A DNA stretch of 64,000 bases from Callorhinchus milii (Eukaryota), in assembly GCF_018977255.1 (NCBI RefSeq), contig NW_024704746.1, forward strand, positions 496,001-560,000, written 5' to 3'. Made by a program: the position numbers and the translations under genes. Below are positions 8,177 through 57,569 of this stretch, piece by piece. Position 1 is the first letter of the stretch. Each line of letters starts with the position of its first letter. The notes below the pieces were generated by a model, which made no database searches, had not been told where the DNA came from, and saw only the letters and a list, made by a program, of their open reading frames with translations.

Positions 8177-8397
8177 TGTTCCCTGCGTCCTTTCCCTAGC
8201 CTCAGTATGTTTGATGAAGACTAATCTTGCCTGTCGAGTTTCATTTGTCTGGGCTTCATTTACATGTTTACCAAACACAGCCAGGGCTTTTCCTCCTCCT
8301 CACGATTGTAACATATTCTAATCTGCAACAAGATCAATATATTTGTTGTATCATCAGGTTATATGTGAATTTAATGTAAAATTTAATGTACCTTATA
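8177..8397. repeat. 221-bp non-SINE segment duplicated in inverted orientation at 56661-56881
   Basis: About 4 mismatches by eye; ORFs 8025..8321(+) and 56737..56967(-) give the same spurious peptide. Confidence 0.92.
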
Positions 8398-8535
8398 TGT
8401 TATTGCTGTGCACAATTGGCTGCCAGGTTTCGCCGACACCATACACAGTCAATCCACTTTACAATATATTCTGTAAAATGCTTTAAGACAACGTGATAAG
8501 ACGCTATATCAAACGCAAGGATTATTATTATTATT
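8398..8535 (+). mobile_element. SINE 3' half
   Basis: gctgtgcacaattggctgcc ... atatcaaacgcaaggattattatt. Confidence 0.85.
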
Positions 8536-8731
8536 CATACTGATTGGGAGGGTGTTACACGTTCATGGAAACCTGGAAAAAAATAGGGCCTAAATAACTT
8601 CTGTGCAACTTGAGAAATAAGGAGTAAAAATAACAGTTCATTTTGGATTCAGAATTAATAGTAGTTAAGATTGTTACAAACAGCAATTGCAGCCAGTCAT
8701 GACTTTCTGGAACAATAGGTTTCACATTTGT

Positions 8732-9411
8732 ATTTTTTTATTCACCCCTGCTTTGTATACAGTATTATTGTCTTCTGCCTTGTCTCATCCCATCACATGC
8801 ACCATTTCCAGTACATTCAAGGATCCATAGGGTTTGTGGGAGCTAATTATCACAGAGCTATTTTAACAGTTGTGCTTAATCAACAAGAGATGGCTTTCAA
8901 TTTGTAATGTCAAACATGGATTATTGCACTGGGTCACATCCTCAGCAATAAAAATCTGAAACCAGCAATATAAATGTAGTGTTACAGTTCAGTAACTTAT
9001 CCTTTCCAAAGAGAAGTACATCAATATTTAAGAACCCCTTGAATAGCTCTCACATTGACTAGTGGGGTACTACATTACCTGAACAAAACACTGGAGACTT
9101 GAATCCCTTAATCTGTACTAAGTTAGTTGATATCACCCAGGACAGCATTTGGTGTGTTTACAATTGGCTTCAGTGAATCTGGGATAGAAAGGCTAACATC
9201 AGCCAGTTGATGAGCCCATTTTGTAAGAGCCAAGTCAAGCTATTGGGTGAGTTTGTTATTGGAGCTCGGCTCTGATCCCTAAATAGTTGGTCTGGAATGC
9301 ATTGACCGAAAGAGTTAAGGTTAGGTAGAAACAAAGTCAATAACAATGTATGATTCTATGAACAACTTTCAAAACGGAATTTTTTTATTCACCCCTGCTT
9401 TGTATACAGTA
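8732..9411 (+). repeat. Perfect 33-bp direct repeat (8732-8764 and 9379-9411)
   Basis: atttttttattcacccctgctttgtatacagta occurs twice, 647 bp apart. Confidence 0.9.
9110..9290 (+). repeat. Old dispersed SINE-like repeat (related copies at about 24665-24850 and 42325-42395)
   Basis: Shared motifs agttag(c/t)tgat.tca and atca(g/a)ccag(g)..ttcct...ccagt.a.tcctgct across three loci; family not named. Confidence 0.5.
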
Positions 9412-9419
9412 AGTAACCC

Positions 9420-9557
9420 GATAGGTACTTGAAAAGGAACACTACGCAAGGATATGAGGAAAGTGCGGGTTAGTGGGACTGATTGGGTAGTTCTTCCAAA
9501 GAGCCGGCAAAGGCCAAATGGCCTCCTTCTGTGCTGTAATATTCTATGATTGTATGA
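9420..9557 (+). mobile_element. CR1 LINE 3' end
   Basis: ggccaaatggcctccttctgtgctgtaatattctatgattgtatg, a CR1 tail with the ATTCTATG repeat. Confidence 0.85.
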
Positions 9558-9751
9558 AAATCTTTGGAAAAATGTGAGACCACCTGAAAGTAAAGTAAAC
9601 ATTTGAGAATGGTGGGCCATATGATAGAAGTATCTATCATGTGCTTGCTATCAACCTATAATACCATCTTGTTATATTAATAGAGATTAATCGATTTATA
9701 AGCCAAGAAAAAATGAACATTTTATCAAGACCACTGGTAAACTTCATTCAG

Positions 9752-10862
9752 TAACAACCACATCTATATACCGCCCTTCACGCCAGCCGGAGTCTCAGAG
9801 CACTTAACAGTAGGAGATCCCGATGTCGAGCCAGAGGAAGGGGGAATGAGACCTAAGCACATTCGAAGAGGTCTTCAGTGCAACCTGAAAGTAGGGAGAG
9901 AGGGGGCAAGGTGAGGGGATTGAGGGAGAGAGTTCCACAGTTCGGGGTTTAGTGACTGAAAGTGGGGTGGAGGGTCCAGGGGACAAGGAGGAGGCCGGAG
10001 CCAGTCGAGCGGAGGCAGCGGGTAGTGGTATAAGGAGAGAGCAGGTTGGAGAGATAGGGAGATGCCAAGGTGTGAAGGGATTTAAATACAAGAGTGAGGA
10101 TCTTGAAATCGATCCGCTCTGTGACAGGGAATCAATGGAGATATGGACTGGGGTAATGGAGGTACAGAGTTTAGCGCAGGTGAGAATGCGGGACGCAGAG
10201 TTTTGAATTAGTTGAATTTTATGAATAGTGGAGCTGGGGAGACCAGTGAGGAGGGCGTTTGAGTAGTCGAAGAGGGAGGTGAAGAGGGTTTTAGCAGCTT
10301 TTCGAGTGAGGTACAGATGAAAGCGAGCAATGTGGTGGTGGTGCAGGTCCTGGTCAGGGCCCGGATATGGGGTACGAAAGTTAGCTGAGGGTCGAAACTG
10401 GCACCTAAGTTGCGCTAAGGTTCGGTGAGTCTTAGGGAGAGATCGGGGAGGGCGAGGAGGTCTGTACCACAGGAGAGAAGATGTTGACAGGAGACAAAAA
10501 GTATGGTCTCCGTCTTGTCAACGTTCAGCTGCAGGAAGTTTGCACTCGTGCAGGCCTTGATGCCCGTCAGTTAAACTGGGAGTTGCAGCCGGAGGAGTAG
10601 ATTTGTGTGTTATCTGCAAACATGTGGAAATGTACCCCACGTCTGTGGATGACATCTTCAAGAGGGAGCATATAGATGAGGAGGAGGAGGGGCCCAAGGA
10701 TGGAGCCCTGGGGTACCCCGCAGGTTACCGGGCAGGAGCAAGAGGAAAAAAATTGGCCGAGATGTATTGTTGGCGGTTGGTTAAGTAGGACTTGAACCAT
10801 GCGAGTACGGTCCCACTAAGGTGGATGAGGGAGGAGAAGTGGTGAAGAAGGATGGCGTGGAC
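9752..10862 (-). mobile_element. L2 LINE, 5'-truncated (RT C-terminus plus 3' UTR), degraded
   Basis: Minus ORF 10567-10800 has GVPQGSILGPLL..IYMLPL...FHMFADNTQIY (RT motif, YADD-like); L2 tail at 9752-9805. Confidence 0.92.
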
Positions 10863-11777
10863 ACTGAGAGCATTTTGAGATTTTCAAACTTCAATGGAAT
10901 TGACTAACCTTATTATGGAGTAGTTGAGCTACTTTCCCAGATTTTTCTATTGTTTTGTTTCAGAAAAACCTGAAATGTCAAGCTATGAAAGTCTACGGAA
11001 CCGTGTTATAGATACTGGAGCTCGATAACGAACCCAGATTCTGGAACCTAGAGCAACAAAGCCAAAAAAATACACAATTCTGTTTTGCAGAAAAATATAT
11101 GAAATGGGCTTGAGAAATGATGTGCGACTCACATATCAAAAGGAAACCACTAAGGTGTCTTGTACTATTTTATTTACCTTGAAGTGAAAAAAAATGATGA
11201 CTTTGAATTCAGATACAAAACTGCCAAAGTAATATTGCAGTGAGAAATATGTTGCCTGCAAAGCTATGTATTTGCCTGAAGTCGCCAGGACTACTATAGA
11301 GAGTATAAAGCTGCAGTGACCCATAGCTGGATAATGTTATGACAGAAGGCCCCCAGTTAAGAAGCCAGTGTTCAAACAAATCCCATCTGAAAGGGAATTG
11401 TTTTTTTTAAAATTCACTGTGAATCAAGGTATAAATTTGGGCAGTTTCTGTACTTATAATGCTGACCTCTGCTGTTCATCTCCGGTTTATGCCAGTTGTA
11501 GAGGCAGCAATCGAAGGGAAAGATTAGATATCGACAGTGTAAGTACACAAACCATGCTCCTGATTATCAATATCACCGTGGGAAACAAAATGAAAATATC
11601 TTGAAAATAGATGCTTTTTAAACTTTCTTTCTGGCATCTTTTGTGACATCTTCAAACAACAAACCAAATGTAACTCCAGGACACTGCTGCTTTAATGAGG
11701 GAGTTATTTGGTTAATTAAAATGGCCAAAAGGTTTGGGTTAAAAATGTTACTCGTAGCCGTTCTACTTGAGATAAAA

Positions 11778-12062
11778 TAATGATTCTTGCACTTCATACA
11801 GCGCCATACCATGTCGTCAAAATGTCTCAAAGAGTTTCACAGAATTTACTATAAAGTCCTTATTTTTAGGTGAACATGACAGTCAATGTGCACACGGCAA
11901 TGACAACAAACAACTGTGAAACAAATGACCAATTTGATCTGGAGGAATAGTCAGGATAGAGGGAGAAATTCCTTTCTGTTTTCCAAATGGCATCATGGGA
12001 TCTTTTAACATCCTCCTGAACAGGCAGACGGTTTAATGTGTCATCTATCCGAAGGACGACAA
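11778..12062 (-). mobile_element. Old Deu-domain SINE (AmnSINE1/SacSINE1-like) fragment
   Basis: catgggatcttttaacatcctcctgaacaggcagacggtttaatgtgtcatc..ccgaaggacg matches the recalled antisense Deu core; a SINE tail lies at 11778-11850. Confidence 0.75.
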
Positions 12063-12774
12063 AATCATTTACTTGACCTAATCTTTCCCTAAATATTGCT
12101 GGGATCTCTATTCTGGAATCAATTCTAAGCATCTGTGCTAGCTCATTTAGGTGGCCGAGCCTTAGAGTAACCCTTTATGTTTAATTTAAAAATGATTTGT
12201 AAGTTGATGAAAAATAGATCCTCCTTGCTTTAAAACGCTTGCCAATTATAAGCAGTACAATAATTCTGTCAGTCACAACCGTCTAAGTTAGTCCACATTT
12301 GTGGAATGTATCTCTATCAAACGTTATTACTAAATGAAAGTGCTATAATTGCTGCAAATAAAACTATATGTGGTAACCAATCAATACCGGAACTCTTGCC
12401 TACGGACTGTTGCGAATGTTTGTAACATCTCAGTGTCAAGGAGTGCAACTTCTTCTATACACCAGGCTTTGTGAGTGCCATGTTGTGCACCAGCTAGTGA
12501 GGAAAGCTGAAGAGCAGCAAATATATTAACCTTATTGCATTTGAGGTTGCCAATATTACAGTGAGGTTAACAAAATAGCTATGGATGCTAAATGTGTAAA
12601 TGAAACCACATAGTCCGCAACACCTTCTGTTAATAGTGTTGACTTTATCACCTGAAAGTCGTTACCTTGGCCAGAGGGCTGGTGGAGATGGAATGAGGGA
12701 TTTGAATTTTCTGATACTCTTTTTTTCTACGAGTATTTTTAACTCGATGACAGTACATGTCTATTTGGGGATGC

Positions 12775-13111
12775 GTGGAGTCCTGTAGCTCAGTGGTTAG
12801 AGCACTCGCTTTGCAAGTGAGAGACCTAAGTTCAATTCCAGGCAGGTCAGGGCGAAACCTTGGGCAAGTTTCCTTACTCCACACAGAGCCTAATAATAAT
12901 CCCTCCAAAACCAAACACAATAATAAATTGGTCATTTTCAATCTACGACTGTTTGTGGGACATTGCTGTGCGCAATTGGCTGCCGCGTTCGCCCACAAAT
13001 ATACAGTCAATTCACTTTACAGTGTGTTCTGTGAAGCGCTTTGGGACGTCCTCCCGACGTGCAAAGCGCTATATCAAATGCAGGGATTATTATTATTATT
13101 ATTATTATTAT
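12775..13111 (+). mobile_element. tRNA-derived SINE, short (young) subfamily
   Basis: Head GTGGAGTCCTGTAGCTCAGTGGTTAGAGC, central deletion (ccacacagagcctaataataatccc), tail gggacgtcctcccgacgtg, long (TTA)n. Confidence 0.95.
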
Positions 13112-14848
13112 CTTGATCTTGTTATTTTGTTATTTCACTTCTTACAGGACATCCATAATGATGTGATGTAATCCATGCATGAAAAATAATCTTGAAAGGT
13201 ATTTTTAAGAAAGAAATTTCTCTGTTATAAAGTCTTCGTCAAAAGATTTCTATTTTTGTAGGCATGGTGAAATATGTCTCTTAGATATAATATCAAAAGC
13301 AACATGTTAAACATATAAAGGGAATGTCAGCCTTATTGGGAGTCTATTGTGACTGAAATAATTTTGAAACATTTTAGTTCAGTTTATGCTCCTAAAGAAA
13401 CAGTCATAAAATTTCAAAATTATTCCTTAATATTATTTTAAATAACAAGCGTAATCTACTCTCTGTAAACCAGTACTCTAACTCCCCAATGTACAGTTCA
13501 TCAGCACTATTGCAGTACTCAGATATAATATGTTCAGAGAGCTACAGAATAGCTACTGTAACCAGAAGTGACTTTGAAATACCCTGAGTCAGCTGAATGG
13601 TTGGCTGTGCTGCAGGCAATTAAAGCTATTCTGTCGTTTTTCTGCACTTACGTAGACTTTAGAACATTTTATTACTAATAACAACAATATGGTTATCCAG
13701 GGTCTTGTTAAAGAATTTGCAGCTGGAAATTTTAGCCTTGCAGTGATGAATGTGGTGACTGTGATTGCTTTTTTGGGAACTGTATTCCAAAGAAAGGATT
13801 TGTACATGTCCATTAAGTGGAGGACAAATAGCACAATAGAAGCATGAAATATGCAGAAGGCAACAGCAGGAGCTTGTCTAAAAGATGGCTTATCTAAAAT
13901 GAATGATCATGAAGGCAGATCCAAACAATAAACAGCAAGCAGCACAACATCTGACAAAGGATGTTGTGTGATTTTTATAAACAGTGGCATTCAATATTAT
14001 GTTAGAATACGGCTTTCTATTAGTAAGGTGGATGTCATTTTTGAATATTGTAATACCACAAATTATAACATAGACAAATGAGCTGTGGTTCTGGAACTTA
14101 AGAGGGCAAAAGATTTCCACCACGAGGGAAAGTAAGAGGATTCTATGACCATCGACTTTAGCCAGAAAAGTTTAAGTCCTTGATACGCACTGAGTTAATT
14201 GCTTATTTTGTAAACCAAACTCGGAGTTCCCTAATCTTACAGTGGCTGTTGGAATGGTTATAACAGGACCAGTAGCAAGTGCATGTCACACAAAAGTCTC
14301 AGCAAAATTCAAGAATGGTTTACCATCTGAAAATTTGTCTGTGAATGACACATTGTAGTGAAAGGAAAACATGAAGTACATTATGGAATAAAATTATGAT
14401 AAACAGAGAAACAATCAGGACTGATTTAATTGGTAGACCGGATGGTATTAACAGGAAATGGGCTATTTCATGTATTACGTAGTGACACATATGCATATAT
14501 TATATAATGGCAGTCATCATCTTAATATCACAAGGCTGAGAGTGAGGATATCAGATTGTTAGGGATTTTAAGTTAAGAGTGTAATGTAGGATCACAGTAG
14601 ATCAAATTCAAACATTTCACATTGTGAAATGTTCTAAATATGTCACAGCTGCCAAAGTAGACTTGTGGCTGGGAGACTAGCTTTGTGAGCTTCTGTGTAT
14701 AGCTTCATAAGTATAATTCCTGCTGAGGATCAAAGATGTGGCAATGTGTCCAGCAGTAACCCAATCCAAGGTTAAACCAGATATAAACAACAAAGAGTAA
14801 TTAAGAGAGACACTACATTTATACCATAGTAGAGTATTTTAGAGTGAT

Positions 14849-15029
14849 CAAAGGCAAAATACTGCAGGTCCTGGAAATCTGAAATAAAAACAGAACACTG
14901 GGAACACTCAGGTTAGGCAGCATCTATGGAGAGAGGAAAGTTAAACTTTTAGGTCAATAACCTTTCAACAGAACTCACTGACGAAGGTCATCGACATGAA
15001 ACATTAACTCACTTTCCTCCTCCATATAA
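14849..15029. mobile_element. Foldback (inverted-terminus) Penelope-like remnant with 11-bp TSD and decayed hammerhead cores
   Basis: TSD TTTAGAGTGAT at 14838-14848 and 15030-15040; partly self-complementary; CTGACGA-AGGTC-ATC-GACAT-GAAAC-ATT-AACTC at 14978-15010; same family as 53130-53352. The Penelope assignment is an inference. Confidence 0.7.
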
Positions 15030-16370
15030 TTTAGAGTGATGGCAGGTTTACACAATAGTGAAGCAATTCAGAATGACACCATATTTACACCAAAATTTCC
15101 AATTCACTCTCACCCGGGAATTGAGGAGAGCCCTGCACACGAGCAGAATTCTGCTAATTCTGTGAAACACCATTTCGTTTTTTAATGTTATTAAACCTAA
15201 GTCTAATAACATTAAAAACCTTATGCATCGCCCCCNAGTGAACCACAAAATTGTCAATTTCATTTGAGGTTTTGCGTTGTTTTTGAATGAATATAATGTA
15301 AAAGGCTTTTCTTTTTTTCTATATTCCAAGTATTTTCAAAAGCCCAAGTTTATGAATCCTTCACCTCATTAACCAGAGCCTGTTTCAGGCCTCCTACGGA
15401 AGGAGAGAGAGAGACATCTTAAATGTCTTGAACAGTGGTAGGAAAGACACTTGGGTGTGTTGCAAATGATGTGCCACTATTCTCTGCCCCCAACCCAGAC
15501 AGTTTTGGATACTACTAAGACATTTGACATTGTAATAATACTTGGAGACCAATTTGAATCCATCTGACAAAGGGAGAAACAGTGATGGCTGAAATTGAAT
15601 ACAATGGAACCAGATGGGCATGCAAGGAAATAACTAAACATATCTTTCATTTTCACTGTATTTTACTGTATTCTTTAAAATACTAATTAATCTGAATAAA
15701 GTGTTAATTGATCAGAACTGAGACAGTTTGCCATCTTTCTGACTGTTGCACCATGAGCAAATTACCAGCTGCTAAAACAGTCTGACTAAGCAGAGAGGTT
15801 CAGACTTTATATAAATTAGTCCTTAAATAAAGCCACAAATTGCTGATCGTAATTGGAACAGATTGCAGTATCTTGCAACATACTCTATCATGTTTAGCCC
15901 TGTCATCACACTACCATAACCTTCTCCAAAGTCACCACTTGTTTCATTGCCAATGTTGCTGCTGCTGTTCCGCAAAGTCAATGCTACCTACCGGCCACTG
16001 GCCTCACACAGACACACAGTCATGACCACGATGCAGCACGACTGCTGCAGTTTAATTCAGACACTTTCATTCTCCCTCATAATGTAACAGGATTTTTGAA
16101 TTTTCAACCTGAAGTTCAACTCTATCAAAAAACATCACTTTATTATCGTAAGCTATATGAATGTGCCAAATGGTGAATGTACAGGACATGTAATTGAGGC
16201 TTTGCCATAATGGGGAAAAATAGGACAGAAGAGACAAAAACCCAGAGTATCAGTTAAGTGATGCTAAGCTTAGGCTCTGAAGACCTGCACACTAACTGTA
16301 AAGAGCTTCACAGACTTGAGGTCCGAGGAAAGAATGTGATAGAATTGGCAAGAAAATGATCATATGTAAG

Positions 16371-16691
16371 GGAGTCCTGTAGCTCAGTGGTTAGACCACT
16401 CGCTTTACAAGTGAGAGACCTGAGTTCAATTCCAGGCAGAGCGAAACCTTGGGCAAGTTTCCTTACTCCACACAGAGCCTAATAATAATCCCTCCAAAAC
16501 CAAAAACAATAATAAATTGGTCATTTTCAATCTATGACTGGTTGTGGGACATTGCTGTGCGCAATTGGCTGCCGCGTTCGCCCACAAATATACAGTCAAT
16601 TCATTTTACAGGGTGTTCTGTGAAGCGCTTTTGGGACGTCCTCCCGACGTGAAAAGCGCTATATCAAATGCAAGGATTATTATTATTATTA
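16371..16691 (+). mobile_element. tRNA-derived SINE, short (young) subfamily
   Basis: Near-identical to the 12775 and 22243 copies. Confidence 0.95.
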
Positions 16692-16693
16692 AA

Positions 16694-17042
16694 AGGGAGT
16701 AAACTTAGTGGATGGAGCCCTCGCCTCGCAACCTGGGTTGATTCCTGGGCAGGCCGAAATGTTGGGCAAGTTTTCTTTCTTTCTCTACACGTCTGAAGTT
16801 GTTAGTCAATTAACAGATCACTTTTCTGGAGGTAATAATCCCTTCAAAAACAAATAATAATAATTATTATTTGGTCACTTCAATTTGCGACTGTTTGTGG
16901 GACGCTGCTGTGTGCAATTGGCTGCTGTGTATCACCCACAAAATATACAGTCAATTCACTTTACAGCATTTTCTGTGAAGCTCTTTTAGACCTCTCAAAG
17001 ACGTGATAAGGCGCAATATCAAATGCAAGGATTTATTATTAT
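16694..17042 (+). mobile_element. tRNA-derived SINE, older copy in tandem with the previous one
   Basis: Decayed head, recognisable body, tail atatcaaatgcaaggatttattatt. Confidence 0.88.
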
Positions 17043-17137
17043 AAACGGACGAACAAGAGAGAGTTTTTAAAAAATGCTTAGCAGTGATAGGAGACTGGGA
17101 CAATATATGTCTAACAGAATCTATGAAAGTGATACTA
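17041..17137 (+). repeat. About 100-bp SINE 3'-flank shared with 57198-57299
   Basis: aaacgga...gcttagcagtgatagga.actgggacaatat.tgtctaa.ag.atctatgaaag follows a SINE tail at both loci. Confidence 0.85.
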
Positions 17138-18139
17138 CCTCGGGCACCCAGGAGGATTTACATATTGGAATTCAGATTTTACATAATAATTTTGAAAATG
17201 GGATTTAAAAGCAAGAGATGCTATTTCTAATCTTTCTTGTTTTGTTGGACTTCATCTTCTGATGATTTCGCCTGCTACAAATTTGTTTGAATAGATACTT
17301 ACAATTTATTGTGTAGACACAGAAATCACAATTTATTGCATGCATAGACCAGAGAAAAACCCTGTAATTATATTTTGTATAACAACCATCTTTATGTTGG
17401 ATTTTAGTGATTCATTTATTTTTGCATATGTGTCAAAACTTTAGATTACATATGCATGAACAATACACAGTCACTGCACTTGTTGAGAAATACCTATGAA
17501 GTGTTTTGAGACATTTTGATTCATACAGATGCTTCATCAAATACAAGGATTCTTTATTTAAAAAAAAGATTGCATTTGATATTGCACCTTTCATATCAGG
17601 AGAATGTTACAGGAATAACTGTAAAGTGCAGTGAATATTTTGTAGGCAAACAGTGGAGATATCTTAAAGATAAAAGATCCAACTCACAAACTCTAAACAT
17701 ATGGCTTTGCAAATCTTCAAAGAACCAGCAAAGAAGAGGCACTGTAAGCACAATGTAGAGAATAATCATTTTTCTATAATCGTCAACAGTCTGAAGTTTG
17801 ATTGGATTAATAAATCTAATTAATTTGACAAATTATGAATAAAACGTATTTGGCAAATTGTATTTAGCTGCATGATATCCATTATAAAGGAGAAACAGTA
17901 GAGTGACACCAATCAGTTTTCTGCACTGATCCTATCCTACCTCCAATATTGTTGTACTTGCATTTTCTAAAGCATCATTTGTAATCTCATGGCCCTATAC
18001 CTGGCATTGATCTGGAAAACATTTATTCTTCATTTCAAACCTCCTCAACACCATGATTTGGATCCTTTTAAATGGCACATCCAAAGGGAAGCTTAGGCCT
18101 ACATTTCTAAAGTTTTGTTTTGCGGGAAATCTATCTGTA

Positions 18140-20982: not shown

Positions 20983-21022
20983 CAACATCGTCGCCTTGAC
21001 CTCCTGACCATAACAAACCCGG
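20983..21022 (+). CDS. AGBL4: Internal coding exon (40 nt, phase 0 to phase 1) of cytosolic carboxypeptidase 6 / AGBL4, probably exon 6
   Basis: Polypyrimidine tract tgtttgtttgtcttttAG (AG at 20981-20982) and donor GG|gtgagt (GT at 21023). It translates as QHRRLDLLTITNP+G, versus recalled human AGBL4 QQRKLDLLTITSP(D), whose exon I also recall as 40 nt. Identification is from memory, not from a search. Confidence 0.88.
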
Positions 21023-21949: not shown

Positions 21950-22020
21950 TACACTGTCCAAGGCCTTGGGACGTCTTCCCGACGTGAAAGGCGCCATACA
22001 AATGTAATCTTGTTGTTGTT
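21950..22020 (+). mobile_element. L2 tail fragment
   Basis: ccttgggacgtcttcccgacgtgaaaggcgccatacaaatgtaatcttgttgttgtt. Confidence 0.8.
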
Positions 22021-36725: not shown

Positions 36726-36776
36726 TTTGAAGCTTGTTGAAGACTTTCATCCTGACGTTGGGGTATAATATGGACA

Positions 36777-36896
36777 ATTTCACCCACAAATATACAGTCA
36801 ATTCACTTTACAGCATATTCTGTGAAGCGCTTTGAGACGTCGAGAAGACGTGAAAACCACTATATCAAATGCAAGGATTACATATATATATATATA
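36777..36896 (+). mobile_element. SINE 3' fragment followed by (AT)n
   Basis: tttcacccacaaatatacagtcaattcac...atatcaaatgcaaggatta. Confidence 0.88.
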
Positions 36897-36905: not shown

Positions 36906-38480
36906 CTTCCTACTCTAATAATCTCTTAATATTAATGAGTTCTCTTATTAACTTCCGATACGAGCGGATACACTTAGAACAAAAACAGAGGAGAATATAG
37001 CATTTCTCAAGTTGGGAATTCAAATTTCCATAACAACAATCTTGTTCTAAAATATTGATTGAGATTCAATGATGATGACTCCTTCCTGTAACTGAAAGTA
37101 CTTCATGTCAATGAACGGTAGCTTTACTCCGAAAATAGTTTGTGTATGAGCATAGTTCTCATGAATCTTCCATTGACAGGTATGTCACCTTGAAGCCAAC
37201 TAAATCCCAAACAGACCCTGCTTATCTTAGTCATTAGATGGTCAATTTTAATAAGCAATGAGTGATTTTAGCTAGAGTAATTAAAAATATAGCTTGAAGA
37301 TATGTTGAAATAACCTAAATTCATCTTCAGGAAATATTTTCTACCATGTGCATGACACATGAACTCCGAGATCATGATTTGCAATGTAATAAATACAACA
37401 ACTTGCACTTATTTAGCCCCTTCCAGGCAGGGGAGCGTCGCAGAGCGCTTAATCCATTTTATCTATTTTAATTCTATTGGCAAAAGCAGACTCACCACCA
37501 CCAATGAGAATCTCAATTTACTTTGGACTCTGGCAGCTGTGAGTTATGTGGTCAGGCTTGTTCACGAGGATATTTCAACTTGAAAAGAATAACTATTTCA
37601 AGGTGGATCAGATTATGGTATCTTTCTCCACATTCGTTTCTTCCCCATTGATTGTTTGTCTTCTGTGCCATTTTTCACTCGTTTCCTCCTGCTAGTCATT
37701 TTCTGTCTGGTGATAGATCAATTATGGGTTGAGCGTACTTTCTACAGTCTAGAATATTGGCATCTAATTTATAATATTTCTTAACAGATTTCTTAATCAG
37801 AAATATATAATTGTCATATTTCTAAAATATTGCCTATCCTGAAGAATGCAATTTTCAACACATTTGACTTTTTAGAAATCTATTTCTTATTTCTTTCATA
37901 TCTGTAAAGAAATATCAGAAATGTAACCTTATGCCAATCTAAGTCCAAACCTCTGTAGCGATTCGGTAATTCACACAACCAATTCCAAATAAGTGGTTTA
38001 GGCTTACATAAGGAGTAATAAGAAACAAGTTAGTATATATATTTAATTTTCTTCAGAAAGTTGTCAGTCATGGGAAGGATGCGGTGCAGATTCACTAAGA
38101 TAACGCTTAAGTAAAACTCTATATTTCAACTCTGGATCACACCATTTTCCAATATGTGCAAGTTGCAGTTGATATCTGTCTTAGTTGTAGTATTCAGAAT
38201 CACTGATTTCTATCCATTTCTCTATCATTCCTCCCTCTGTGGTTTATTATTTAGCCCTTAATACCAGCCATTCTTAGCTATTGTCCTTGGTGAAATTGAA
38301 CTGCTCCACAAGGCATATGCATCTTGATCAATATTTCAGAACAAGATTGTTGTTATGGAAATTTGAGTTCCCAACTTGTGAAATGCTATATTCTCCTCTG
38401 TTTTTGTTCTTAGTGTATCCGCTCGTGTCGGAAGTTAATAAGAGAACTCATTAATATTAAGAGATTATTAGAGTAGGAAG
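36906..38480. repeat. About 160-bp inverted repeat (arms 36906-37065 and 38321-38480) around a 1.25-kb spacer
   Basis: The arms are reverse complements with about 7 mismatches by eye; no TSD or transposase seen. Confidence 0.93.
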
Positions 38481-41773: not shown

Positions 41774-41787
41774 CAAGACCTTTTAAT

Positions 41788-48602: not shown

Positions 48603-50133
48603 GCATTTTAACTAAAAAACGCGTATAAGAGCAGAGTAACAATTTCTTTGCATGCAATTCTGGTATCATTCTTATGATTAGGTCAGTTTTGTTTAGGCTC
48701 AAAGATGACTAACTATATTCTTCTGTAAATTGTTTGGTAGGTGACTAACAATGCCAAGGAATTTTAGTTTGGAGTTAATCAAGGTCACCAGCTGTAATGT
48801 CAGCTTTTAACTGCTCCACACTGGACTCGTGTATCCAATCAAGTGGGTGTATTGAGTTCCAAAGAAAAGTTATAAATATCTATTGATGCACAATATAGCC
48901 TTTATCTTGCTTTATAGACGAGCCTTAAATATATTATCATCCCTAAAAGGTTTAGTCATTATGAGGTATTATGGACATTAAGGTAAAAGCTCTTGTGCAT
49001 TAATTATGCTTTATCTTTCAGTTACTATTATGGATTGACATGCGTTCTTATGCTGATTGATGCAATACAGTACTTGCTTCCTGTGGTAACAATGTGGACT
49101 TGACACATTCAAAGTTTACATTTTTTGCAGAGAAACATATTTGCAAACCCAGAATTTACCCAGCAGTAAGCTAGTCAGCCTCTTTCCAATGCTTTGGAAT
49201 AACTAAATAAAGGGCCAATAAATACAGTATGAGAAAATTGTATCAAAACGAAGAAGGTCATAACTGAGTACAGATGAAGACCCTTTGCTCTCGTCTTTCT
49301 AGAATATCCATGCTCTACGGCCTTCTCATTTTAGCAGAAAACTGTTTCTTAAGAGTCCAGCAAACTGGCTTATAACACTTAAGATTGTTGGCTAACCAAA
49401 CCATCACGATATATGACTACCATTACTATTTTGCACACACTAGGTACATCCTGAGTGTAATATAATTGATATGTTGCTAATGTTTCACAAGAACTGCATT
49501 TTATGTAATTTTGAACGCCATCACATCATTATAATCATGCTGTTTAACAGTTCTTGACCACACTTTTACAAATAGTTAAAGTAATAATAATAAAATAATA
49601 TAAAGTACCCTGAAATATACTCCGTTCCATTGGGAAAACACTATTTTTTCAATACATTTCCTGTAAAACTTATTATTCATTATTAAAGCATGAGAGAATT
49701 AACATAGGAACAATGGAGGCGTATCAAGTTCACCAATATACTGTTTTGGTCCATTTTATACAAATCAGACACCGACAATGGCCAAATAATCAGCTGCTGA
49801 TTGGGTAGATGGGCAGAAAGAAATTTCGCACAGTCTGTTAATCAAGAACTAATCTTTATGCTGTTGCCTTCAAATTGCCTTTTATAATAATTGCATGGGC
49901 ACACGTGAGTGCAGACACATATGTTACATATGAAAGTACATTTAGCCTTCATTGTATTTCTCTGATTCAATCCCCCCCCCACCCTTTAAAAGTGAATACT
50001 GTAGAACAAACTGATTTATTAACAATCATGCCAAGTAAATCCTGTGTATTGTATATCCGTGCATTTATACCAGATTTGATTGCTCTTCAATCTGTGAATT
50101 TTACCACTATTCTTTACTTATTTATCTATTTAA

Positions 50134-50945
50134 AAACATAGAAACAAGAGTAGGCTATTCAGCCTCTCGAGCCTGTTCCGCCATTCTATAAGATCATGGC
50201 TAATCTGTACCTCAAGTCCAGTTACCTTACCCTTACCCCATATCCCTTAATACCCTGTCCTAACAAATATCTATCCACCTCAGTCTTGCCAGCGTGAATG
50301 GATCCAACATCCACAGCCTTTAGGGGGAGAGAGTTCCAGATTTCCTCTACCTTTTGGGTGAAAAACTGCCTCTGATTTCACTCCTGAATGGCCCGGCTCT
50401 AATTTTAAGATGATGCCCCTTGTTCTGGATTCCCCACCAGGGGAAATAGTTTCTCTGTAGCTACCCTATCAAATCCCTTTATTACTTTAAACACCTCAAT
50501 CAGATCACCCCTAACCCCCTGAACTAAAGGGAATACAGACCAAGTTTACGCCACCTGTCCTCATAATTTAACCCTTTAAGCCCTGGTATTATTCTGTTGA
50601 GTCTGTGCTGCACCCCCTCCAGAGCCAATATATGCTCCCTGAGGTGCAGTACCCAAAACAGCACAGTCTCCAGGTGGGGTCTGACCAAGGCTCTATATAG
50701 TTGAAGCATCATTTCCTCTTTTTGATATTCCAGCCTCTTGAGATAAAGGCCAACATCCCATTAGCCTTTTTGATAACTTTTTGTACCTGTGAACTTGTTT
50801 TTAGTGATTTGTGTACGTGGAAATCCCAAATGCCTTTTCTCCTCCACAGTTCGTAGTTTCTCCTCATTTAGAAAACAATCTGTTTTGCTATTTTTGGATC
50901 TATAGTGGATGACCCCACACTTCCCCATATTGAATTCAATCTGCC
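50134..50945 (-). mobile_element. CR1 LINE 3' fragment
   Basis: MLQLYRALVRPHLE...LEGVQHR..RIIPGLKGLNYEDR.RKLGLYSL; acatagaaac tail at 50134. Confidence 0.9.
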
Positions 50946-51829
50946 AGAAGGAAATTTATTTTTAAAGAAAGAGTTCAGCATTACAGTAAACAATACTCTT
51001 CACAGCCGCACTGTAATAAAATATCTCCGCTCATTTAAACACACATTTATGTCTTGTGTTTGCCTTCTGCTAATATCACGTGTGACCATCTGGTTAAACA
51101 CATGCATCTGAATAATTGGTAAAACACTGCATTAAGAAGTTTCGGCAAGTGCGTCCTGCCTGCGTGTTTACTTCTATCCACTTTATTCAGCCTGGGGTAA
51201 CTGCTTGAGCAATGGTGAGGCTTCAACCAAATGGGATACCACATGGCATGCCACCTGGATGGTAGCACGTTCACATCTTAAAATGCACTGATTGTAAAAG
51301 GAGTGTATTATATCATATATTATCATTATCCAATTATCATATGCTTTGCACTTCATTAAGTAACAACGCTGCTGGCACATTGTTTTACTCCACGAATACC
51401 TCCACAGCAAATTGCATTTCTGTGAAGCACACCTTCAGCACAACTGCTGAACATCAAACCCCACACACAGCAAGTGAGATACCTGTCCCCAATCAAGCAA
51501 AACACACTTAGTATTGGATTTATAATTCCTATAACAATGTATTTTTCAATACACTTTCTGTTTGAACATATTTTTATAAGTGAAATGAATTCAAGTTAAA
51601 AATCAGCTCTAGTGACAAAGAATTGAAAAAAGATTCACTGTCTGTGCTAAAATCCAACAAGGCAGTGAATTAATTTTGAGTATCCTGGAGAGGAAATCCA
51701 TTCTCCAAGTCGAGTTTGATCCCAAACCAGTTGTTAAGCACAGGATATAAAACCATCATATTCTGTGTCCTGGTGATAATGATATCACTGGTGGTAATTA
51801 TTGTATTACATACTGCAGCTCGATTTGCA

Positions 51830-51990
51830 ATAATAGTAATCCTTGCATTTTATACAGAGCCTTAACATATTGTCGAAACATCTCAAAGCTATTCTCAGGA
51901 TGTACTGTGAAGCATAGTGACTGGCTATTTGCAGGCAAATGCAGCTGCCATATTGTGCACAACAATGTCCCTCAAACAGCCATGAGGTTT
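51830..51990 (-). mobile_element. Old SINE 3' half
   Basis: aatagtaatccttgcatttt...gcagctgccatattgtgcacaacaatgtccctcaaacagc. Confidence 0.7.
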
Positions 51991-53129
51991 CATAATTACT
52001 ATATATACCCATATATTCTGATCTAGACAACTGCTGGTACCAAAAACAAAATGTTTCACAGAAATGTGTGTACTCACTTGGAAAACAAATAACTTTGTGT
52101 CCATATTCGAACAGAATGTAAGTTGACACATCGACCAGCTTTAGCTCAGGATGCTCTCGCTAGCTTTCAGTATCGTAATATTTTACTGAATATGACACAC
52201 CATTTATCATCAAATACATAAATATGAAAAGAAAGAAATGAAAGTAGTAGAAGATTGATCTTTGCCTGGGGACAATACCTGGCAAAGGTTCAACTTCACT
52301 TAAGATATTCCTTATCCCGGATTTCCTCAAAAGCCCAGTAGAGATGTGTCTGAAGCCCCTCACAATCAATATTCATTCATGTGGCAGCTATTTCAGCATT
52401 CCATTCTTCATTTCAAGATATCCCAATAGAGACCAAACCCATGGTGCTCCATGAAGCTGCCTGGAACACACGATTCTCTCTGAGGTTCACAGCTCTGCAG
52501 TGTGAGGTCAGCTTTGTGTTCTATAAACTGTTATATTTCATACAAGAGCCACTTGTGCTAAACTGCCTCTGTCATAGAGAATGACAACCTGGATGGCTTC
52601 AGACTTGCCATGAATGATCAGTGAACAAGTTACAGTTATCCACCCTGTGTCACAGCATCAGACATGTTCGCCATTCCTCCGCCCGCCCCCCACCCCGAAA
52701 TTTGGTGTCATTTAAAATTCCAGACACATGATTTTCATACATTGGGTACTGTTTATCGTGCTCCAAATTCTACAGTATTTCAATCCAGAATAATCTAATG
52801 AAGAGAGCACAAACCACTATTTTTCCTATTCGTTTCGATGGGGGAATCACCAATTCAATTAAAACCCCACCATAGTGCAACTGCATTTATTGCAAGTGAA
52901 AATATTACATCTTCAATGTTAATCATCATATGAACTGCCTTTCCCTCCATGCACAAAAGAAAGCGGTACAGTTTGCTACAGAAAGAGCTTGCTCTTCTGT
53001 GGTACACGATTATGTGGGCAGACAGCAATAAGCAATAACTGGCTGTGACATAGAGGTGGCATCCATATTTTCATTACCTCTGGTAGTCACAGGGAAAGAG
53101 CTTTATGTAGCTTTCAATATATTTTACAC

Positions 53130-53352
53130 TAAACGCAAAAATACTGCAGATGCTAGAAATCTGAAACAAAAACAGGAGTCGCTTGGGAACGCTCAGCAGG
53201 TCAGCCAGCATCTATGGAGAAAGGAAAGTGAGTCAACGTTGTCCACGTTTCGAGTCCAAGAAAGGGTTGTGGACCTGAACCGTTGACTCACTTTCCTTTC
53301 TCCGTAGATGCTGCCTGACCTGCTGAGCGTTCCCAACGACTCCTGTTTTTGT
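53130..53352. mobile_element. Foldback Penelope-like remnant (about 70-bp arms)
   Basis: acaaaaacaggagtcg...gagtcaacg (53166-53238) pairs with cgttgactc...cgactcctgtttttgt (53281-53352); possible decayed TSD aatatattttacac / aatacattctatac; same family as 14849. Confidence 0.75.
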
Positions 53353-54269
53353 AATACATTCTATACATCAGAAAGTACATTTTGAGTTGTTCAACAAAAA
53401 ATGTTGTGGAGGTTACTTTAGAAAGGCTAAATAAATGTATCTTCCCATAATTACAGAACTGGTGAGTCCTATGGTCTGAATGCTAAGTTGTGGGCATGTG
53501 CTAATGATAAGTATTTAAGTTCTCAAGGCACTGACATTTCTCAAGGTCAGCAGAATGCGATTGACTCTGCTATCCAACTAGTTTCTCATTATATTGCTCA
53601 TGTTACACAAAAGCTCATTTGAATGCTGGAGGAATCCTGTTTGAAAACATTTAGCTGTTTTTGTAATATCCATCTGCTGAGATACAACTGAATAATTAAA
53701 ACGGTACAAAAATAATTATTTTATCCTGCACTTTTCAGCATACAAATAAACATTGTTTAATTTTTCACAGGAAAGAAAGGATTCCATAAAAACCGAAGCC
53801 CACTAACAGGTCTCAGCCTCTGGAATGATTGACAAGGCATGTGCATTAAGTGCTGGAAAATTGCACTCTGATATGGTTTGGGAGACATTAGACCAGTCTC
53901 TATGCAATCATTTCCTTTTAAATTGCTGGAAGTTCCCTTTTAAATTGCACTGGATTGTCAGAAAAGCTTCCTCCTGCTTCAGTGCACTTTAGAAACAAAT
54001 AGCTCATGAGCTGCTCAACCTTGTTTGATCCAGTTGCAGCTGTTAAATGTGTGCATGCCCAATCAAACTAAAAACCTCATTGAAATATCAGTATTCACAT
54101 GCATGAATTAACGATGAAGGTTCAGCCAAGGAAACAAACAAAAGTAAACAAAAACCGAGTGCACAAAGAACATTCTAACTGGATATTTCAGTAAAACATG
54201 CTTACTATAGGGCTGCTTCATAGCAATAGATACCATAGTTGAGTTAAGGATGATAACCTTATAACCTTC

Positions 54270-54825
54270 CAGGATTATAAGGATTGGCTTGAAAATTTGG
54301 GGCTGTTATTCATTGAAACAGAGAGGGTTAAGAGGAGATTTAATATCAGTCTTCAAAATCCTGAAAGGTTTCAAGAGGATAAATGGTGAAAGGTTATTCC
54401 TGCTGGTTGGTAAATAGGTAACTAGGAGGCATCAACTCAGGAACATCAGTATAAGAGTTAAAAGGAGGTTAGAAGAATTGTTTTCACACAATGCGCTGTT
54501 AAAATGTGGAATACTTTGCCTCAAGTAGCTGTTGAACCAAAACCGTAGTTACATTTGCAATAACAACAATCTTTGCATTTCATATTGTGCCTTTCATGTC
54601 GGGGGAATGTCCTAAAGCAATCCACAAGATTTTACTGTAAAGTGTAATCACTGTATTTTCTAGTTGAGTATATAAAAGGGAATTGGATAAGCATATGAAA
54701 ACAAACAATACAAGGTGTTGCAAGGGAGTAGGGTATTGGAAATAATGTAGTTACCTGCAGTAGGCAAGCTGGTACCAGCATTGGCTCTATCTAAATAGCA
54801 ACCTTCTGTGCTATCATTTCTATGG
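54270..54825 (+). mobile_element. Old CR1 3' fragment with a nested minus-strand SINE tail (about 54560-54660)
   Basis: agagagggttaagaggagatttaat...ttttcacacaatgcgctgttaaaatgtggaatactttgcc...cttctgtgctatcatttctatg. Confidence 0.8.
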
Positions 54826-54904
54826 TGATATTATTACAGTACCTATGGTATCATCTAGTAAACTGAGTTTCAGCAATGTAGTTAAAATAGAAATAGTAGT
54901 ACTT

Positions 54905-55245
54905 TATTAAAATAATAATAATCTGTGCATGTTATACAGCATCTAAATGTCTCAAAGCACTTTACAATAATTATTGTTTAGTATAGTGACAGTATTTGTA
55001 GGCAAACATGGTATCAATTTGTACATAACAGTGTCCCACAAATATTGATGAATGACCAATTTTATTTTTGACGACCGTTGGCTCGGCCACAGGGAGAAAC
55101 TCTCCTCTCTTTTGAATATCGTCATTGGTTATTTAACATCCTCCTAAACAGGCTGATGGGGCCTCAGTTTAATGTCTCATCTGAAGGACGGTTGTTCTGA
55201 CAATGCAGTACATACCAGCACTGCACTGGAGGTCGAACTGGACTG
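54905..55245 (-). mobile_element. Old Deu-domain SINE
   Basis: ggggcctcagtttaatgtctcatctgaaggacgg...gacaatgcagtac...cactgcactgga matches the recalled antisense Deu core; (TAA)n tail at 54910. Confidence 0.8.
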
Positions 55246-56596
55246 AAAAACAGCAGTTCAAAATCATAGTTATGAATTAGAGTGATTTATAATCTCTCAG
55301 AACTTCCTTACATTTCTGTACTATTTGGTAGATATATAGCAATATTTCTCCCTTTTCACCAGTATAAATATACAGGTAACACAGACATAAGAGATGCTGT
55401 GAAGATAATTGGCAATAACCCAACTTTTTCCCTATTGCCATCTGTTGATTTTTGGGCTGAATATTTCAATCAATTTGGCTTCAGGTTCCTTTTCTCGTTT
55501 GCAGTACCAAATAATCTGAATTTGCTTCTAAGCCCAAATTCAAATATTGGAAAGAAAGTCTTGACATTGGAATGTCCCAGGTAACACAGGAAAAACGTAG
55601 TCAGTTCAGATGCATAGACCTATTTGTTCCCCACTGAAGTACTAACTGCATGAATAGCAGTTATGAAAAAGAACAACTTGAATGCATAACCATTAGATCA
55701 CAGTTCAGACTAATTGGATGGTTGCTATAATGTGTGAAAAACAACTAACTTACAGTCATTCTTACACTTATTAAAATATATTCAAGAACATTTTAATACA
55801 GTTTTGGAAGTGGCATTGGTATTCCTCCAGAGAAGAATCAAAACACATGAATTATCTTGTCTGCCCGAAGAGACATTCACATTAAATCAACATCGAGTCA
55901 TCTGGACTGAGAGCAAGCTTTTTCAGAATAAATCCAAATTAGAGTTAATTAGGTTCACAAATTAATTTTAGCTAATTCCTAGGAGCTGTCAAGATAGAGA
56001 GCCAATAAATATATATATATATATGGTTTCCTTAATGCTTATTTTTGCTTGGCCAACAGGGATTTCATATTTTCATTGCTATTTTCTAGTTTCAAACTCG
56101 GAACAGCAAATATCACAAAACACAGCAAAGAGCAAAGTACAAACAGAAAGAATAAGCATTTATTTGAATTTCAATCTAGAGACAAATACATGTTGCAATG
56201 TATTATTTTCATCATGATACAGTGATACTAAAGGCCTTCAAGGATTATTTTCATCATCATTTTTATTCTTAATCTAAATTTCCTGTCTTGCTTGATTCCG
56301 CTTGTGTCAGAGCGCGGTGAATATTGTTTTCAGATTTGCAAAAGAGTCAGACAATATTCTCCTTCGTCTTGTGGCTCACAGCAGTCTTTCAAATCGAACA
56401 TCAATGATAGAATTCGTAGTAAGTTTAAAAAAACATAGGGTTAGTCACGAATATCAAGAAGCTGATCTTAGCAAGAAGTTCACAGTGGGGTACACAACAC
56501 TAGCCTTAGAATAAAAGCAGAAAGTCTGTGCAACTTCCAAAATGGACGTTCGGTCTAGGATGTTTACAGAGCTATTGTTATTCCTCAAAAGATTCA

Positions 56597-57199
56597 TGGA
56601 GTCTAGTAGCTTAGTGGTTAGAGCACTCGCTGCAGCAGCCAATTGTGCACAGCAATAAAGTATAAGGTACATTAAATTTTACATTAAATTCACATATAAC
56701 CTGATGATACAACAAATATATTGATCTTGTTGCAGATTAGAATATGTTACAATCGTGAGGAGGAGGAAAAGCCCTGGCTGTGTTTGGTAAACATTTAAAC
56801 AAAGCCCAGACAAATGAAACTCGATAGGCAAGATTAGTCTTCATCAAACATACTGAGGCTAGGGAAAGGACGCAGGGAACAGTGGAGTCCTGTAGCTCAG
56901 TGGTTACTGGGCAGGGCGAAATGTTAGGGAAGTTTTGTTGCTCCACATGCCTCTGTTTACCAAGCAATAATTAGGATCCTGGTTGTTAGTCGATTGGCGA
57001 ATCGCTTTTCCAGAGGTAATAATCCCTTAAAAAAAATAATAATACTTTGGTCACTCAATTCACGACTGTTTGTGGGACGCTGCTGTGTTTCGCCGAAAAA
57101 ATATACAGTCAATTCACTTTACATTGTATCCAGTGAAGCGCTTTAAGACGTCTCGAAGACGTGATAAGGTGCTATATCAAATGCAAGGATTATTATTAT
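56597..57199 (+). mobile_element. Composite: SINE head (56597-56630), inverted SINE piece, 221-bp duplicated spacer, SINE (56882-57199)
   Basis: Direct reading; the spacer matches 8177-8397 in reverse orientation. Confidence 0.88.
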
Positions 57200-57569
57200 A
57201 AACGGAAGAGAAAGAGACATTTAAAAAAAAGCTTAGCAGTGATAGGATACTGGGACAATATGTGTCTAAAAGTATCTATGAAAGATGGCAATGATACTAA
57301 TGTTTAGTGCTAATTTGCTGGCTCACATCATTCCCTTACAGGCACCCTATCAAATTGCTGTCCTCAGTACACTGAAGTTTCAGGCCCTCGGGTCTATTGT
57401 TATCTGAAAGAAATAAGGAGGTAATTTGAGCTATAAGCTGTTAGAATGTTATAGCTGTACAATCAAAACAATAAATAACCCCTGGCAACTTGATCCTTTC
57501 ACTGAGTTCTATTTGCTGGCAGACTAGCCAGCTTCCTCATGTCAATGGCCAAAGAATGGTCAAAGGATA

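What the first reader, a model, noticed from the sequence alone, without database searches (positions are those of the whole stretch)
8177..57299. Recurring pattern: second copies of nearby unique intronic DNA sit directly at retroelement junctions
Seen in the sequence: four apparently non-TE segments each occur twice, with one copy at or very near a SINE/LINE end. They are 33 bp at a CR1 5' end (9379), about 160 bp inverted just after a SINE tail plus (AT)n (36906), 221 bp inverted at a SINE 5' end (56661), and about 100 bp after a SINE tail (57198). Inference: integration or repair of L2/CR1/SINE elements here may often capture locally templated sequence, by RT template switching onto the nascent host pre-mRNA or local DNA, or by polymerase-theta-type templated insertion. 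This would be a route to intra-intronic shuffling. Templated filler at LINE junctions is known; the density and the 40-50 kb range are what stand out.
Basis: partly seen in the sequence, partly recalled or inferred. Interest (0 to 1): 0.7.

Follow-up and report, generated by a model that had tools for sequence, protein, structure and literature searches.

The report
Repair-copy scars guided by repeats
Four short pieces of intron DNA in a cartilaginous-fish gene each occur twice in the genome, likely because broken DNA was mended by copying from nearby DNA rather than because jumping genes captured RNA as they inserted; this is a known kind of scar, although dead LINE copies here also share near-identical patches over 50-480 kb, farther than the roughly 10 kb reported for human Alu repeats.

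Summary
The four duplicated segments are real: each has two matches in the 991-Mb genome, and independent sequencing contigs bridge the junctions of three of them (the fourth was not tested). The 33-bp copy lies inside a CR1, not at its 5' end, and is younger than it. The 221-bp and ~95-bp segments abut a SINE in both copies and meet at one chimeric SINE. Two copies are antisense to the host (AGBL4-like) pre-mRNA, so RT switching onto nascent RNA does not fit. In a 1.86-Mb sample, two-copy duplicates under 6 kb apart number 54 (1.9 expected per window, 2 seen), and their TE adjacency is mostly explained by landing in, or later splitting by, TEs. They match repair-mediated duplications (Pace 2009). 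The 40-48 kb pairs fit repeat-primed ectopic repair. New here: an L2 pair 48 kb apart links the same two regions by a conversion-like tract (1 difference in 241), and 3 of 3 LINEs checked genome-wide have their closest relatives 48-480 kb away. The scan noted similar single cases elsewhere in this genome.

The parts
7785..8176 (-). SINE A1, full-length tRNA-headed SINE of the older type; likely donor of the 5' half of SINE B
   Evidence: best match to B's 5' half, 11 differences in 125, rank 1 of 59
8177..8397 (.). U, 221-bp unique DNA between two SINEs; likely donor copy
   Evidence: two matches in G000; 4 differences in 221
8398..8535 (+). SINE A2, 5'-truncated 3' fragment; its first 24-26 bp are also copied to locus B
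8732..8764 (+). 33-bp donor in unique DNA
9289..9558 (+). CR1 3' fragment that holds the 33-bp copy, plus 8-nt and 19-nt insertions
   Evidence: profile hit, model 317-533 of 539; alignment
9379..9419 (+). 33-bp copy plus 8-nt filler inside the CR1; about 3-4 bp microhomology at the left joint
   Evidence: left junction on contigs of X1, X2, X4
9847..10253 (-). L2 3' fragment (9754-10862): conversion-like tract shared with the L2 at 57572; core 9847-10087 has 1 difference in 241
   Evidence: next best in genome 81-83% among 40 scored of 9351 candidates
16703..17042 (+). SINE C, directly behind a young SINE (16371-16691)
17043..17137 (+). 3' flank of SINE C, shared with locus B
20983..21022 (+). 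40-nt exon (AG...GT) of the host gene, an M14 cytosolic carboxypeptidase (AGBL4-like; name recalled)
   Evidence: other exons on + at C5:476.5 kb and 586-623 kb; one scores Peptidase_M14
36775..36881 (+). SINE D, 5'-truncated 105-bp 3' fragment, 94-96% to its nearest sampled relatives
36906..37068 (-). 163-bp inverted copy behind the tail of SINE D; homology may start at 36882, broken by an (AT)n run
38318..38480 (+). 163-bp partner in unique DNA, 1.25 kb away
50133..50946 (-). CR1 fragment sharing internal near-identical tracts with CR1s at C5:712.7, 933.7 and 1025.3 kb
56597..56633 (+). Locus B: orphan SINE head (model 2-38)
   Evidence: junction on contigs of X1, X2, X4
56635..56904 (-). 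Locus B: inverted copy of A2 start + U + first 23 bp of the A1 head
56905..57199 (+). Locus B: SINE body after a 40-bp deletion; 5' half A1-like, 3' half not (A1 rank 53 of 58, C rank 14 of 58)
57200..57299 (+). Locus B: copy of the 3' flank of SINE C
57668..58063 (-). L2 3' fragment (57572-58142): partner of the tract at 9847; core 57668-57908

Best explanation
The four segments are real two-copy duplicates that likely arose when broken germ-line DNA was repaired by copying from a nearby DNA template (SDSA or polymerase-theta-type synthesis), mostly after and independently of the insertion of the repeats they touch. Class 1 (33 bp, 163 bp): a broken end invades DNA 0.6-1.3 kb away through a few bases of microhomology, copies a short stretch and is joined back with filler; such a copy lands inside or beside a TE simply because TEs cover about a third of the DNA. 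Class 2 (221 bp, ~95 bp): a break inside SINE B invades a similar SINE 40-48 kb away through the repeat homology, synthesis runs off the end of the donor SINE into its unique flank, and end-joining closes the gap, leaving head fragment + captured flank + restarted SINE. When synthesis stays inside the repeat the same process leaves only a conversion tract, as in the L2 pair 9847/57668 and the CR1 at 50133. Shown: sequences, two matches each, internal position of the 33-bp copy, orientations, distance spectrum, local closest relatives. Inferred: which copy is donor, the repair pathway, the order of events.
For: Distance spectrum in 1.864 Mb of masked sample: 14-25 pairs per 1e9 base pairs of pair space at 0.1-1.5 kb against 0.3-0.8 beyond 5 kb (score 45 bits or more); 54 two-copy pairs, median gap 857, median length 69, 33 direct and 21 inverted. 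Pace et al. 2009 report a mean of 1.2 kb, rarely over 5 kb, mean length 162 bp, with microhomology, filler and deletion. The 33-bp insert shows microhomology plus filler inside a CR1. SINE pairs sharing an outward flank: 4 of 33,930 at 20-70 kb (2 from this window, 2 independent) vs 1 of 637,227 between blocks; P=0.007 without the window's two. One independent case (C7:1.129/1.171 Mb, two matches in G000) has the same head-flank-restart anatomy. B's 5' half is A1-like, its 3' half is not. The L2 tract has 1 difference in 241, flanked by 16-26% diverged homologous ends, similar in age to U (Fisher P=0.2). The CR1 tracts are internal, and one partner lacks the 3' tail.
Against: No empty orthologous site was seen, so donor and acceptor are inferred. 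B's A1-like half differs more from A1 (11/125) than U does (4/221; P=0.004), and in the C7 case the SINE part is also less alike than the flank, which a single clean copy would not give. B's 3' half ranks C only 14th of 58. The random-landing null predicts 10-16 TE-embedded copies and 5 were seen. Natural tails (7 vs 2.2) and heads (4 vs 0.5) are in raw excess. The 163-bp copy starts at the SINE tail and is as old as that SINE. The long-range counts are small.
Confidence: 0.8

Rival explanations
1. Capture during integration: L2/CR1/SINE insertion adds locally templated DNA at its junction (5' extra nucleotides by annealing, or RT switching onto nascent pre-mRNA).
For: 5' extras of ZfL2-2 come largely from flanking sequence (PMC4245944 passages; PMC4760211 part 2 of 4). 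SINE D (94-96% to relatives) and the 163-bp pair (95%) are of like age. Raw excess at natural tails and heads. About 3 of 54 sample pairs face a 5'-truncated end at a compatible age (judged by eye).
Against: The 33-bp copy is internal and younger than its CR1; the 163-bp and ~95-bp pieces are on the 3' side; the 163-bp and 221-bp copies are antisense to the pre-mRNA. Of 22 one-sided pairs, 5 are embedded in a TE, 3 are duplicates split by a later TE, 2 have a TE-filled spacer (TSD-like), 3 abut heads of discordant age; the other 9 lie within the chance level of 12.3 +/- 3.0 for all pairs (sorted by eye).
Confidence: 0.1
2. For the 163-bp pair only: a staggered-break inversion of the 1.25 kb between the arms, possibly started by the SINE's TPRT nick, left an inverted duplication.
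For: The arms are inverted, 1.25 kb apart, and the copy begins at the first ATT unit of the SINE tail with a short microhomology.
Against: No split marker shows that the spacer was flipped; 21 of 54 sample pairs are inverted and 33 direct, as expected of templated insertion in either sense.
Confidence: 0.15
3. Locus B was made in one multi-template event (donors A and C lie only 9 kb apart), and U and the L2 tract were later re-homogenised by gene conversion, instead of two separate captures.
For: Three links join 7.8-17.1 kb to 56.6-58.1 kb; about 0.1 mid-range pair is expected per window; chimeric acceptors with two donors are known (20 cases in Pace et al.); B's 5' half (8.8%) and the C flank (12%) are of like divergence.
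Against: U (4/221) and the flank (10/85) differ in divergence, P=0.0006; needs an extra, unseen conversion.
Confidence: 0.3
4. The local closest relatives among LINEs come from local retrotransposition or regional subfamilies and base composition, not conversion.
For: The excess of local best partners is strong in the two GC-rich blocks B6 and B7; only 40 candidates were scored in each genome-wide search.
Against: Near-identity is confined to internal tracts with diverged homologous ends, and one CR1 partner has no 3' tail.
Confidence: 0.12
5. Unannotated repeat families or misassembly.
For: The genome search skips very common words; the four runs are contigs of one study and collapse the two U copies into one path.
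Against: Two matches each; three pairs differ by 2-12%; junction-bridging contigs and about 1.4-fold depth over U.
Confidence: 0.02

Closest known systems
Repair-mediated duplications (Pace, Sen, Batzer, Feschotte 2009, PMC2671141; parts 1-5 of 8 of the text read)
   Same: Two-copy, 30-250 bp, donor mostly within 1.5 kb, microhomology plus filler, found interrupting TEs, chimeric two-donor acceptors.
   Different: The two long-range pairs (40, 48 kb) fall outside their <5 kb class and are primed in a SINE; the 33-bp case is below their 50-bp limit; no cartilaginous fish in their Table 3. Three embedded events of 50 bp or more in 0.6 Mb of TE here against 0.08-0.65 per Mb there (different pipeline, small count).
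TE-mediated rearrangements / Alu-Alu template switching (Balachandran et al. 2022, PMC9675761; passages)
   Same: Two related SINEs act as substrates of ectopic repair and leave a chimeric element.
   Different: Their events are deletions, duplications and inversions of 93 bp to 25 kb between the TEs; here only a 95-270 bp flank is copied 40-48 kb away and the DNA between seems untouched.
Non-allelic gene conversion between TE copies (Doronina et al. 2021, PMC8230782, and Fawcett and Innan 2019, PMC6598467; passages; Aleshin and Zhi 2010 known only through them)
   Same: Partial tracts that make mosaic elements; rate linked to distance.
   Different: The range quoted for Alu is about 10 kb; here L2 and CR1 tracts link copies 17-480 kb apart.
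5' extra nucleotides of L2-clade LINEs (ZfL2; PMC4245944 passages, PMC4760211 part 2 of 4)
   Same: Locally templated DNA at a retroelement junction.
   Different: Those sit at the 5' junction and form at integration; none of the four segments here is a clean 5' junction of equal age.

Membership tests
Repair-mediated duplication (Pace 2009) | Segment found at only one other place in the genome | tested here: met
   Two matches each for 4 of 4, within the limits of the search
Repair-mediated duplication (Pace 2009) | Donor within 5 kb (33-bp and 163-bp pairs) | tested here: met
   615 and 1250 bp
Repair-mediated duplication (Pace 2009) | Donor within 5 kb (221-bp and ~95-bp pairs) | tested here: not met
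   48 and 40 kb; they work like distant RDs but are outside the proximal class
Repair-mediated duplication (Pace 2009) | Microhomology, filler or deletion at the joints, no poly(A) tail | tested here: met
   33-bp case: 3-4 bp microhomology and 8-nt filler; 163-bp case: short microhomology, blurred by (AT)n; no poly(A) seen
Repair-mediated duplication (Pace 2009) | Empty site in a related species or individual | not testable with these tools
   No relative genome is held; no empty allele among the joints listed for four runs at locus B (15 shown, 80 not)
5' extra nucleotides / capture at integration | Position at the 5' junction of the element | tested here: not met
   33 bp internal, 163 bp and ~95 bp 3' of a tail, 221 bp between an orphan head and a second head
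5' extra nucleotides / capture at integration | Same age as the element | tested here: inconclusive
   Not met for 33 bp or for 221 bp vs SINE B (9.8% from the family majority); compatible for 163 bp and ~95 bp
RT template switch onto host pre-mRNA | Captured DNA in pre-mRNA sense when the element reads sense | tested here: not met
   Gene on +; 163-bp and 221-bp copies are - strand of their partners; met only if A, not B, were the acceptor of U
TE-primed ectopic repair / TEMR | Related TEs at matching positions and sense at donor and acceptor | tested here: met
   A1/B and C/B; two more pairs on C7
TE-primed ectopic repair / TEMR | Chimeric TE at the joint | tested here: inconclusive
   B's 5' half ranks A1 1 of 59, its 3' half 53 of 58, but the margin is small (8.8% vs 12.8% for the next)
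Non-allelic gene conversion between TEs | Internal near-identical tract with diverged homologous ends | tested here: met
   L2 9847-10087: 1/241, ends 16-26%; CR1 50133-50946 with two partners
Non-allelic gene conversion between TEs | Both elements present before the event (outgroup) | not testable with these tools
   No outgroup genome

The most novel reading that the evidence does not exclude
In this genome repeat-guided ectopic repair works across whole chromatin domains (about 20-500 kb, against about 10 kb quoted for Alu): dead L2 and CR1 copies homogenise each other regionally and SINEs copy their neighbours' flanks between introns, so the genome holds a fossil map of germ-line DNA contacts, and repeat ages read from pairwise divergence are regionally biased.
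Probability: 0.3. Interest if true: 0.62.

Novelty: new member of a known kind. Interest (0 to 1): 0.3.

Why it matters
As given, the finding is an ordinary scar of DNA repair, described in vertebrates in 2009, with no function shown; it is not a new route of RNA capture. The side result matters more: if long-range conversion among LINE copies is general here, it would give a countable record of how far a broken germ-line chromosome searches for a template in a vertebrate, testable against Hi-C, and it would caution against dating repeats by nearest-copy identity. Extrapolated from 54 pairs in 1.864 Mb, the genome would hold some 29,000 short local duplicates.

Tried and rejected
A rigid-shift null gave 23 of 57 vs 5.9 for TE adjacency; rejected as the sole test because it forbids a copy from landing in a TE. 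With a more sensitive mask it is 22 of 54 vs 12.3 (rigid) or 21.5-27.4 (random landing). Rows dropped: from 66 pairs, 7 with depth over 2 and two 191-bp identical pairs, then 3 pairs that were TE on both sides. Four other 'interrupted SINE' spacers, searched genome-wide, were single-copy (4 of the 10 without a local partner among 13 candidates): probably unrelated neighbours. A Pfam scan of the 150 longest of 309 non-TE frames of the window found no host exon; a PDB search with one exon frame found nothing; 5 of 6 exon frames gave no M14 hit. Unannotated repeat and misassembly: rejected. 3' transduction for the ~95-bp flank: C's flank has a T5 run 22 bp in and neither copy ends in an element tail; not favoured. 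A link of the head break to the anticodon loop: the C7 case breaks at model 56, not 38; dropped. A special 30-50 kb distance: post hoc, 3 unbiased cases; kept only as a lead. SINE local-partner excess was not significant (49 of 253 vs 39.3, P=0.058). No RNA holder listed. One stray row in the alignment was ignored. PMC1716264 is not held.
Full report
1. What is there. The window is G000:C5:496001-560000 of a 991.5-Mb genome, rich in a tRNA-headed SINE that shares its tail with an L2, and in CR1. Earlier notes of the scan call the species elephant shark (not checked here); a paper on that species describes such a SINE/LINE pair (PMC1845163, passages). The window lies in introns of a + strand M14 carboxypeptidase gene: a 40-nt exon at 20983-21022, exons at C5:476.5 kb and 586-623 kb, one with a Peptidase_M14 hit. 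The name AGBL4 is recalled.

2. The observation. All four pairs are real and each gave two matches in the genome. Contigs of four runs of one study bridge the left junction at 9379 (X1, X2, X4) and the left junction of locus B (X1, X2, X4), and run from B's tail into its flank (4 of 4, 24 letters on the tail side); U has depth 10-13 against about 7-9 beside it.

3. Anatomy. (a) The 33-bp copy is a 37-nt insertion inside a CR1 fragment (9289-9558), with 3-4 bp microhomology and 8 nt of filler. It is identical to its source, while the CR1 is 14% (3' part) to 21% (whole, nearest of 14) from relatives: P=0.007 or 0.0005. It postdates the CR1. (b) The 163-bp copy follows the tail of a 105-bp SINE fragment, inverted, 1.25 kb from its partner; ages are alike. 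(c) Locus B reads: SINE head 2-38, inverted copy of the start of SINE A2 + U + 23 bp of the A1 head, 40-bp deletion, SINE body, tail, ~95 bp of SINE C's flank. B's 5' half is closest to A1 (11/125, rank 1 of 59, median 20.7%); its 3' half is not (rank 53 of 58; C rank 14). U differs 4/221 and the flank 10/85 (P=0.0006). So the four segments make three acceptor sites, and both long-range ones touch a SINE in both copies.

4. RT capture of pre-mRNA. With the gene on +, the 163-bp and 221-bp copies are antisense when the abutting SINE reads sense; two segments lie 3' of a tail; one is internal. The long-range pairs cross an exon. Templated 5' extras are known for ZfL2 (PMC4245944 passages; PMC4760211 part 2 of 4), but no segment here is a clean 5' junction of equal age. 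U would be in sense if A were the acceptor; I think this less likely (about 1 in 4), because A is two ordinary SINEs while B is rearranged and its anatomy recurs on C7.

5. Sample test. I fetched 400 kb around the window and seven 200-kb blocks (1.864 Mb), masked repeats de novo and self-aligned. Low-copy matches are some 30-60 times denser within 1.5 kb than beyond 5 kb. 54 two-copy pairs at 0.1-6 kb remain after dropping 12 of 66; 1.85 are expected per window and 2 are seen. A TE lies within 20 bp of one copy only in 22 of 54, against 12.3 +/- 3.0 when pairs are shifted rigidly and 21.5-27.4 when the copy may land anywhere. Against my reading: natural tails 7 vs 2.2, heads 4 vs 0.5, and only 5 embedded vs 10-16 under random landing. 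Sorting the 22 by eye: 5 embedded (4 events), 3 split by a later TE, 2 TSD-like, 3 heads of discordant age, 9 left. Capture at integration is not needed, though a few cases may be such.

6. The long range. Strict two-copy pairs at 5-70 kb: 8 events (6 without the window's) in 101.7e9 of pair space, against 23 alignments (about 16 events by my grouping) in 1489.6e9 between blocks. SINE pairs sharing an outward flank: 4 of 33,930 at 20-70 kb, 0 of 12,392 at 5-20 kb, 0 of 43,275 at 70-200 kb, 1 of 637,227 between blocks; P=0.007 without the window's two. The C7 pair at 42 kb has two matches in the genome and the same head-flank-restart build.

7. The L2 at 9790-10230 is 95% identical to the L2 at 57613-58044; the next best of 40 scored (9351 candidates) is 81-83%. 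The core has 1 difference in 241 and the ends 16-26%: a conversion-like tract joining the same two regions as U. The CR1 at 50370-50700 has partners at C5:933.7 (99%), 1025.3 (100/99%) and 712.7 kb (95%), the rest at most 89%; tracts are internal and one partner lacks the tail. An L2 at C5:309.9 kb has a 97% partner 138 kb away, the rest at most 89%. These three were chosen as outliers in the sample. Outlier pairs: 10 of 29 within blocks (8 in the block around the window) vs 3 of 20 between blocks, in about 240e9 vs 1490e9 of pair space. One tile per LINE: best partner in the same block for 60 of 232 vs 37.1 expected (P=8e-5); 40 of 177 vs 22.9 without that block. Regional GC and subfamily structure were not controlled.

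8. Comparison. Pace et al. 2009 (PMC2671141, parts 1-5 of 8) describe this class: 824 of 1136 human cases within 5 kb, mean 1.2 kb, mean 162 bp, microhomology, filler, deletion, 20 two-donor chimeras, 58 intrachromosomal cases beyond 5 kb. TE-primed ectopic repair is described for Alu and L1 (PMC9675761, passages), conversion among neighbouring Alus within about 10 kb (PMC8230782 and PMC6598467, passages), and dependence of donor use on contact frequency in yeast (PMC5507452, abstract). Ten searches (listings only) showed no title on such duplicates or on LINE conversion in cartilaginous fish; most subscription journals are not held and no supplements were read. Earlier notes of this scan report single cases of each kind in this genome (unchecked).

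9. Verdict. Real, partly mis-described, and a new member of a known kind: repair-mediated duplication plus repeat-primed ectopic repair (0.8). The long reach of LINE conversion is the one lead worth a genome-wide test. Interest 0.3.

Noticed in passing
window 9847-10253 and 57668-58063: Conversion-like tract between two L2 fragments 47.8 kb apart, direct, 1 difference in 241 in the core; it links the same regions as the 221-bp duplicate.
   Followed up: yes
window 50133-50946; G000:C5:712.7, 933.7, 1025.3 kb (L044, L195, L196): Four CR1 fragments within 0.5 Mb share near-identical internal tracts; one was later split by a young SINE.
   Followed up: yes
G000:C5:471.5 kb and 651.2 kb; 559.6 kb (window 63565-64000) and 741.2 kb: Two more 98-99% tracts of 420-480 bp between old LINE pieces about 180 kb apart; not checked genome-wide.
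   Followed up: partly
L161:8760-9287 and G000:C7:1170565-1170820: Second case of SINE head + captured flank + restarted SINE, partner 42 kb away.
   Followed up: yes
L055:5634-5869: Textbook repair duplication: 236 bp, 97%, inverted, from 0.9 kb away, inside a SINE next to its palindromic core.
   Followed up: partly
window 8398-8423, 56635-56658, about 57090: The SINE's quasi-palindromic core recurs as a truncation point, a joint and a 17-bp deletion; possibly a fragile site.
   Followed up: no
window 9342-9360: A 19-nt insertion in the CR1 that looks like a CR1 tail stub with a 5-bp repeat.
   Followed up: no
window 20983-21022: 40-nt exon of the AGBL4-like host gene; neighbours are an RRM (ELAV-like, recalled) gene at about C5:323 kb and a sodium:solute symporter gene at about C5:728 kb.
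   Followed up: partly
L035:8291-8584 (-) and L047:3959-4144 (-): Frames with Tubulin_C and Mitoc_L55 hits; the tubulin piece lies near the 3' part of the host gene on the other strand.
   Followed up: no
window 53138-53350 and 14850-15026: Copies of a short repeat family (57 profile hits in the sample); the copy at 53.1-53.4 kb forms an inverted pair.
   Followed up: no
G000:C2:30133935-30134574, C3:15138881-15139593, C4:40140173-40140586: 100% identical direct repeats of 191-212 bp, possibly assembly overlaps; the two 191-bp rows were dropped from the counts.
   Followed up: no
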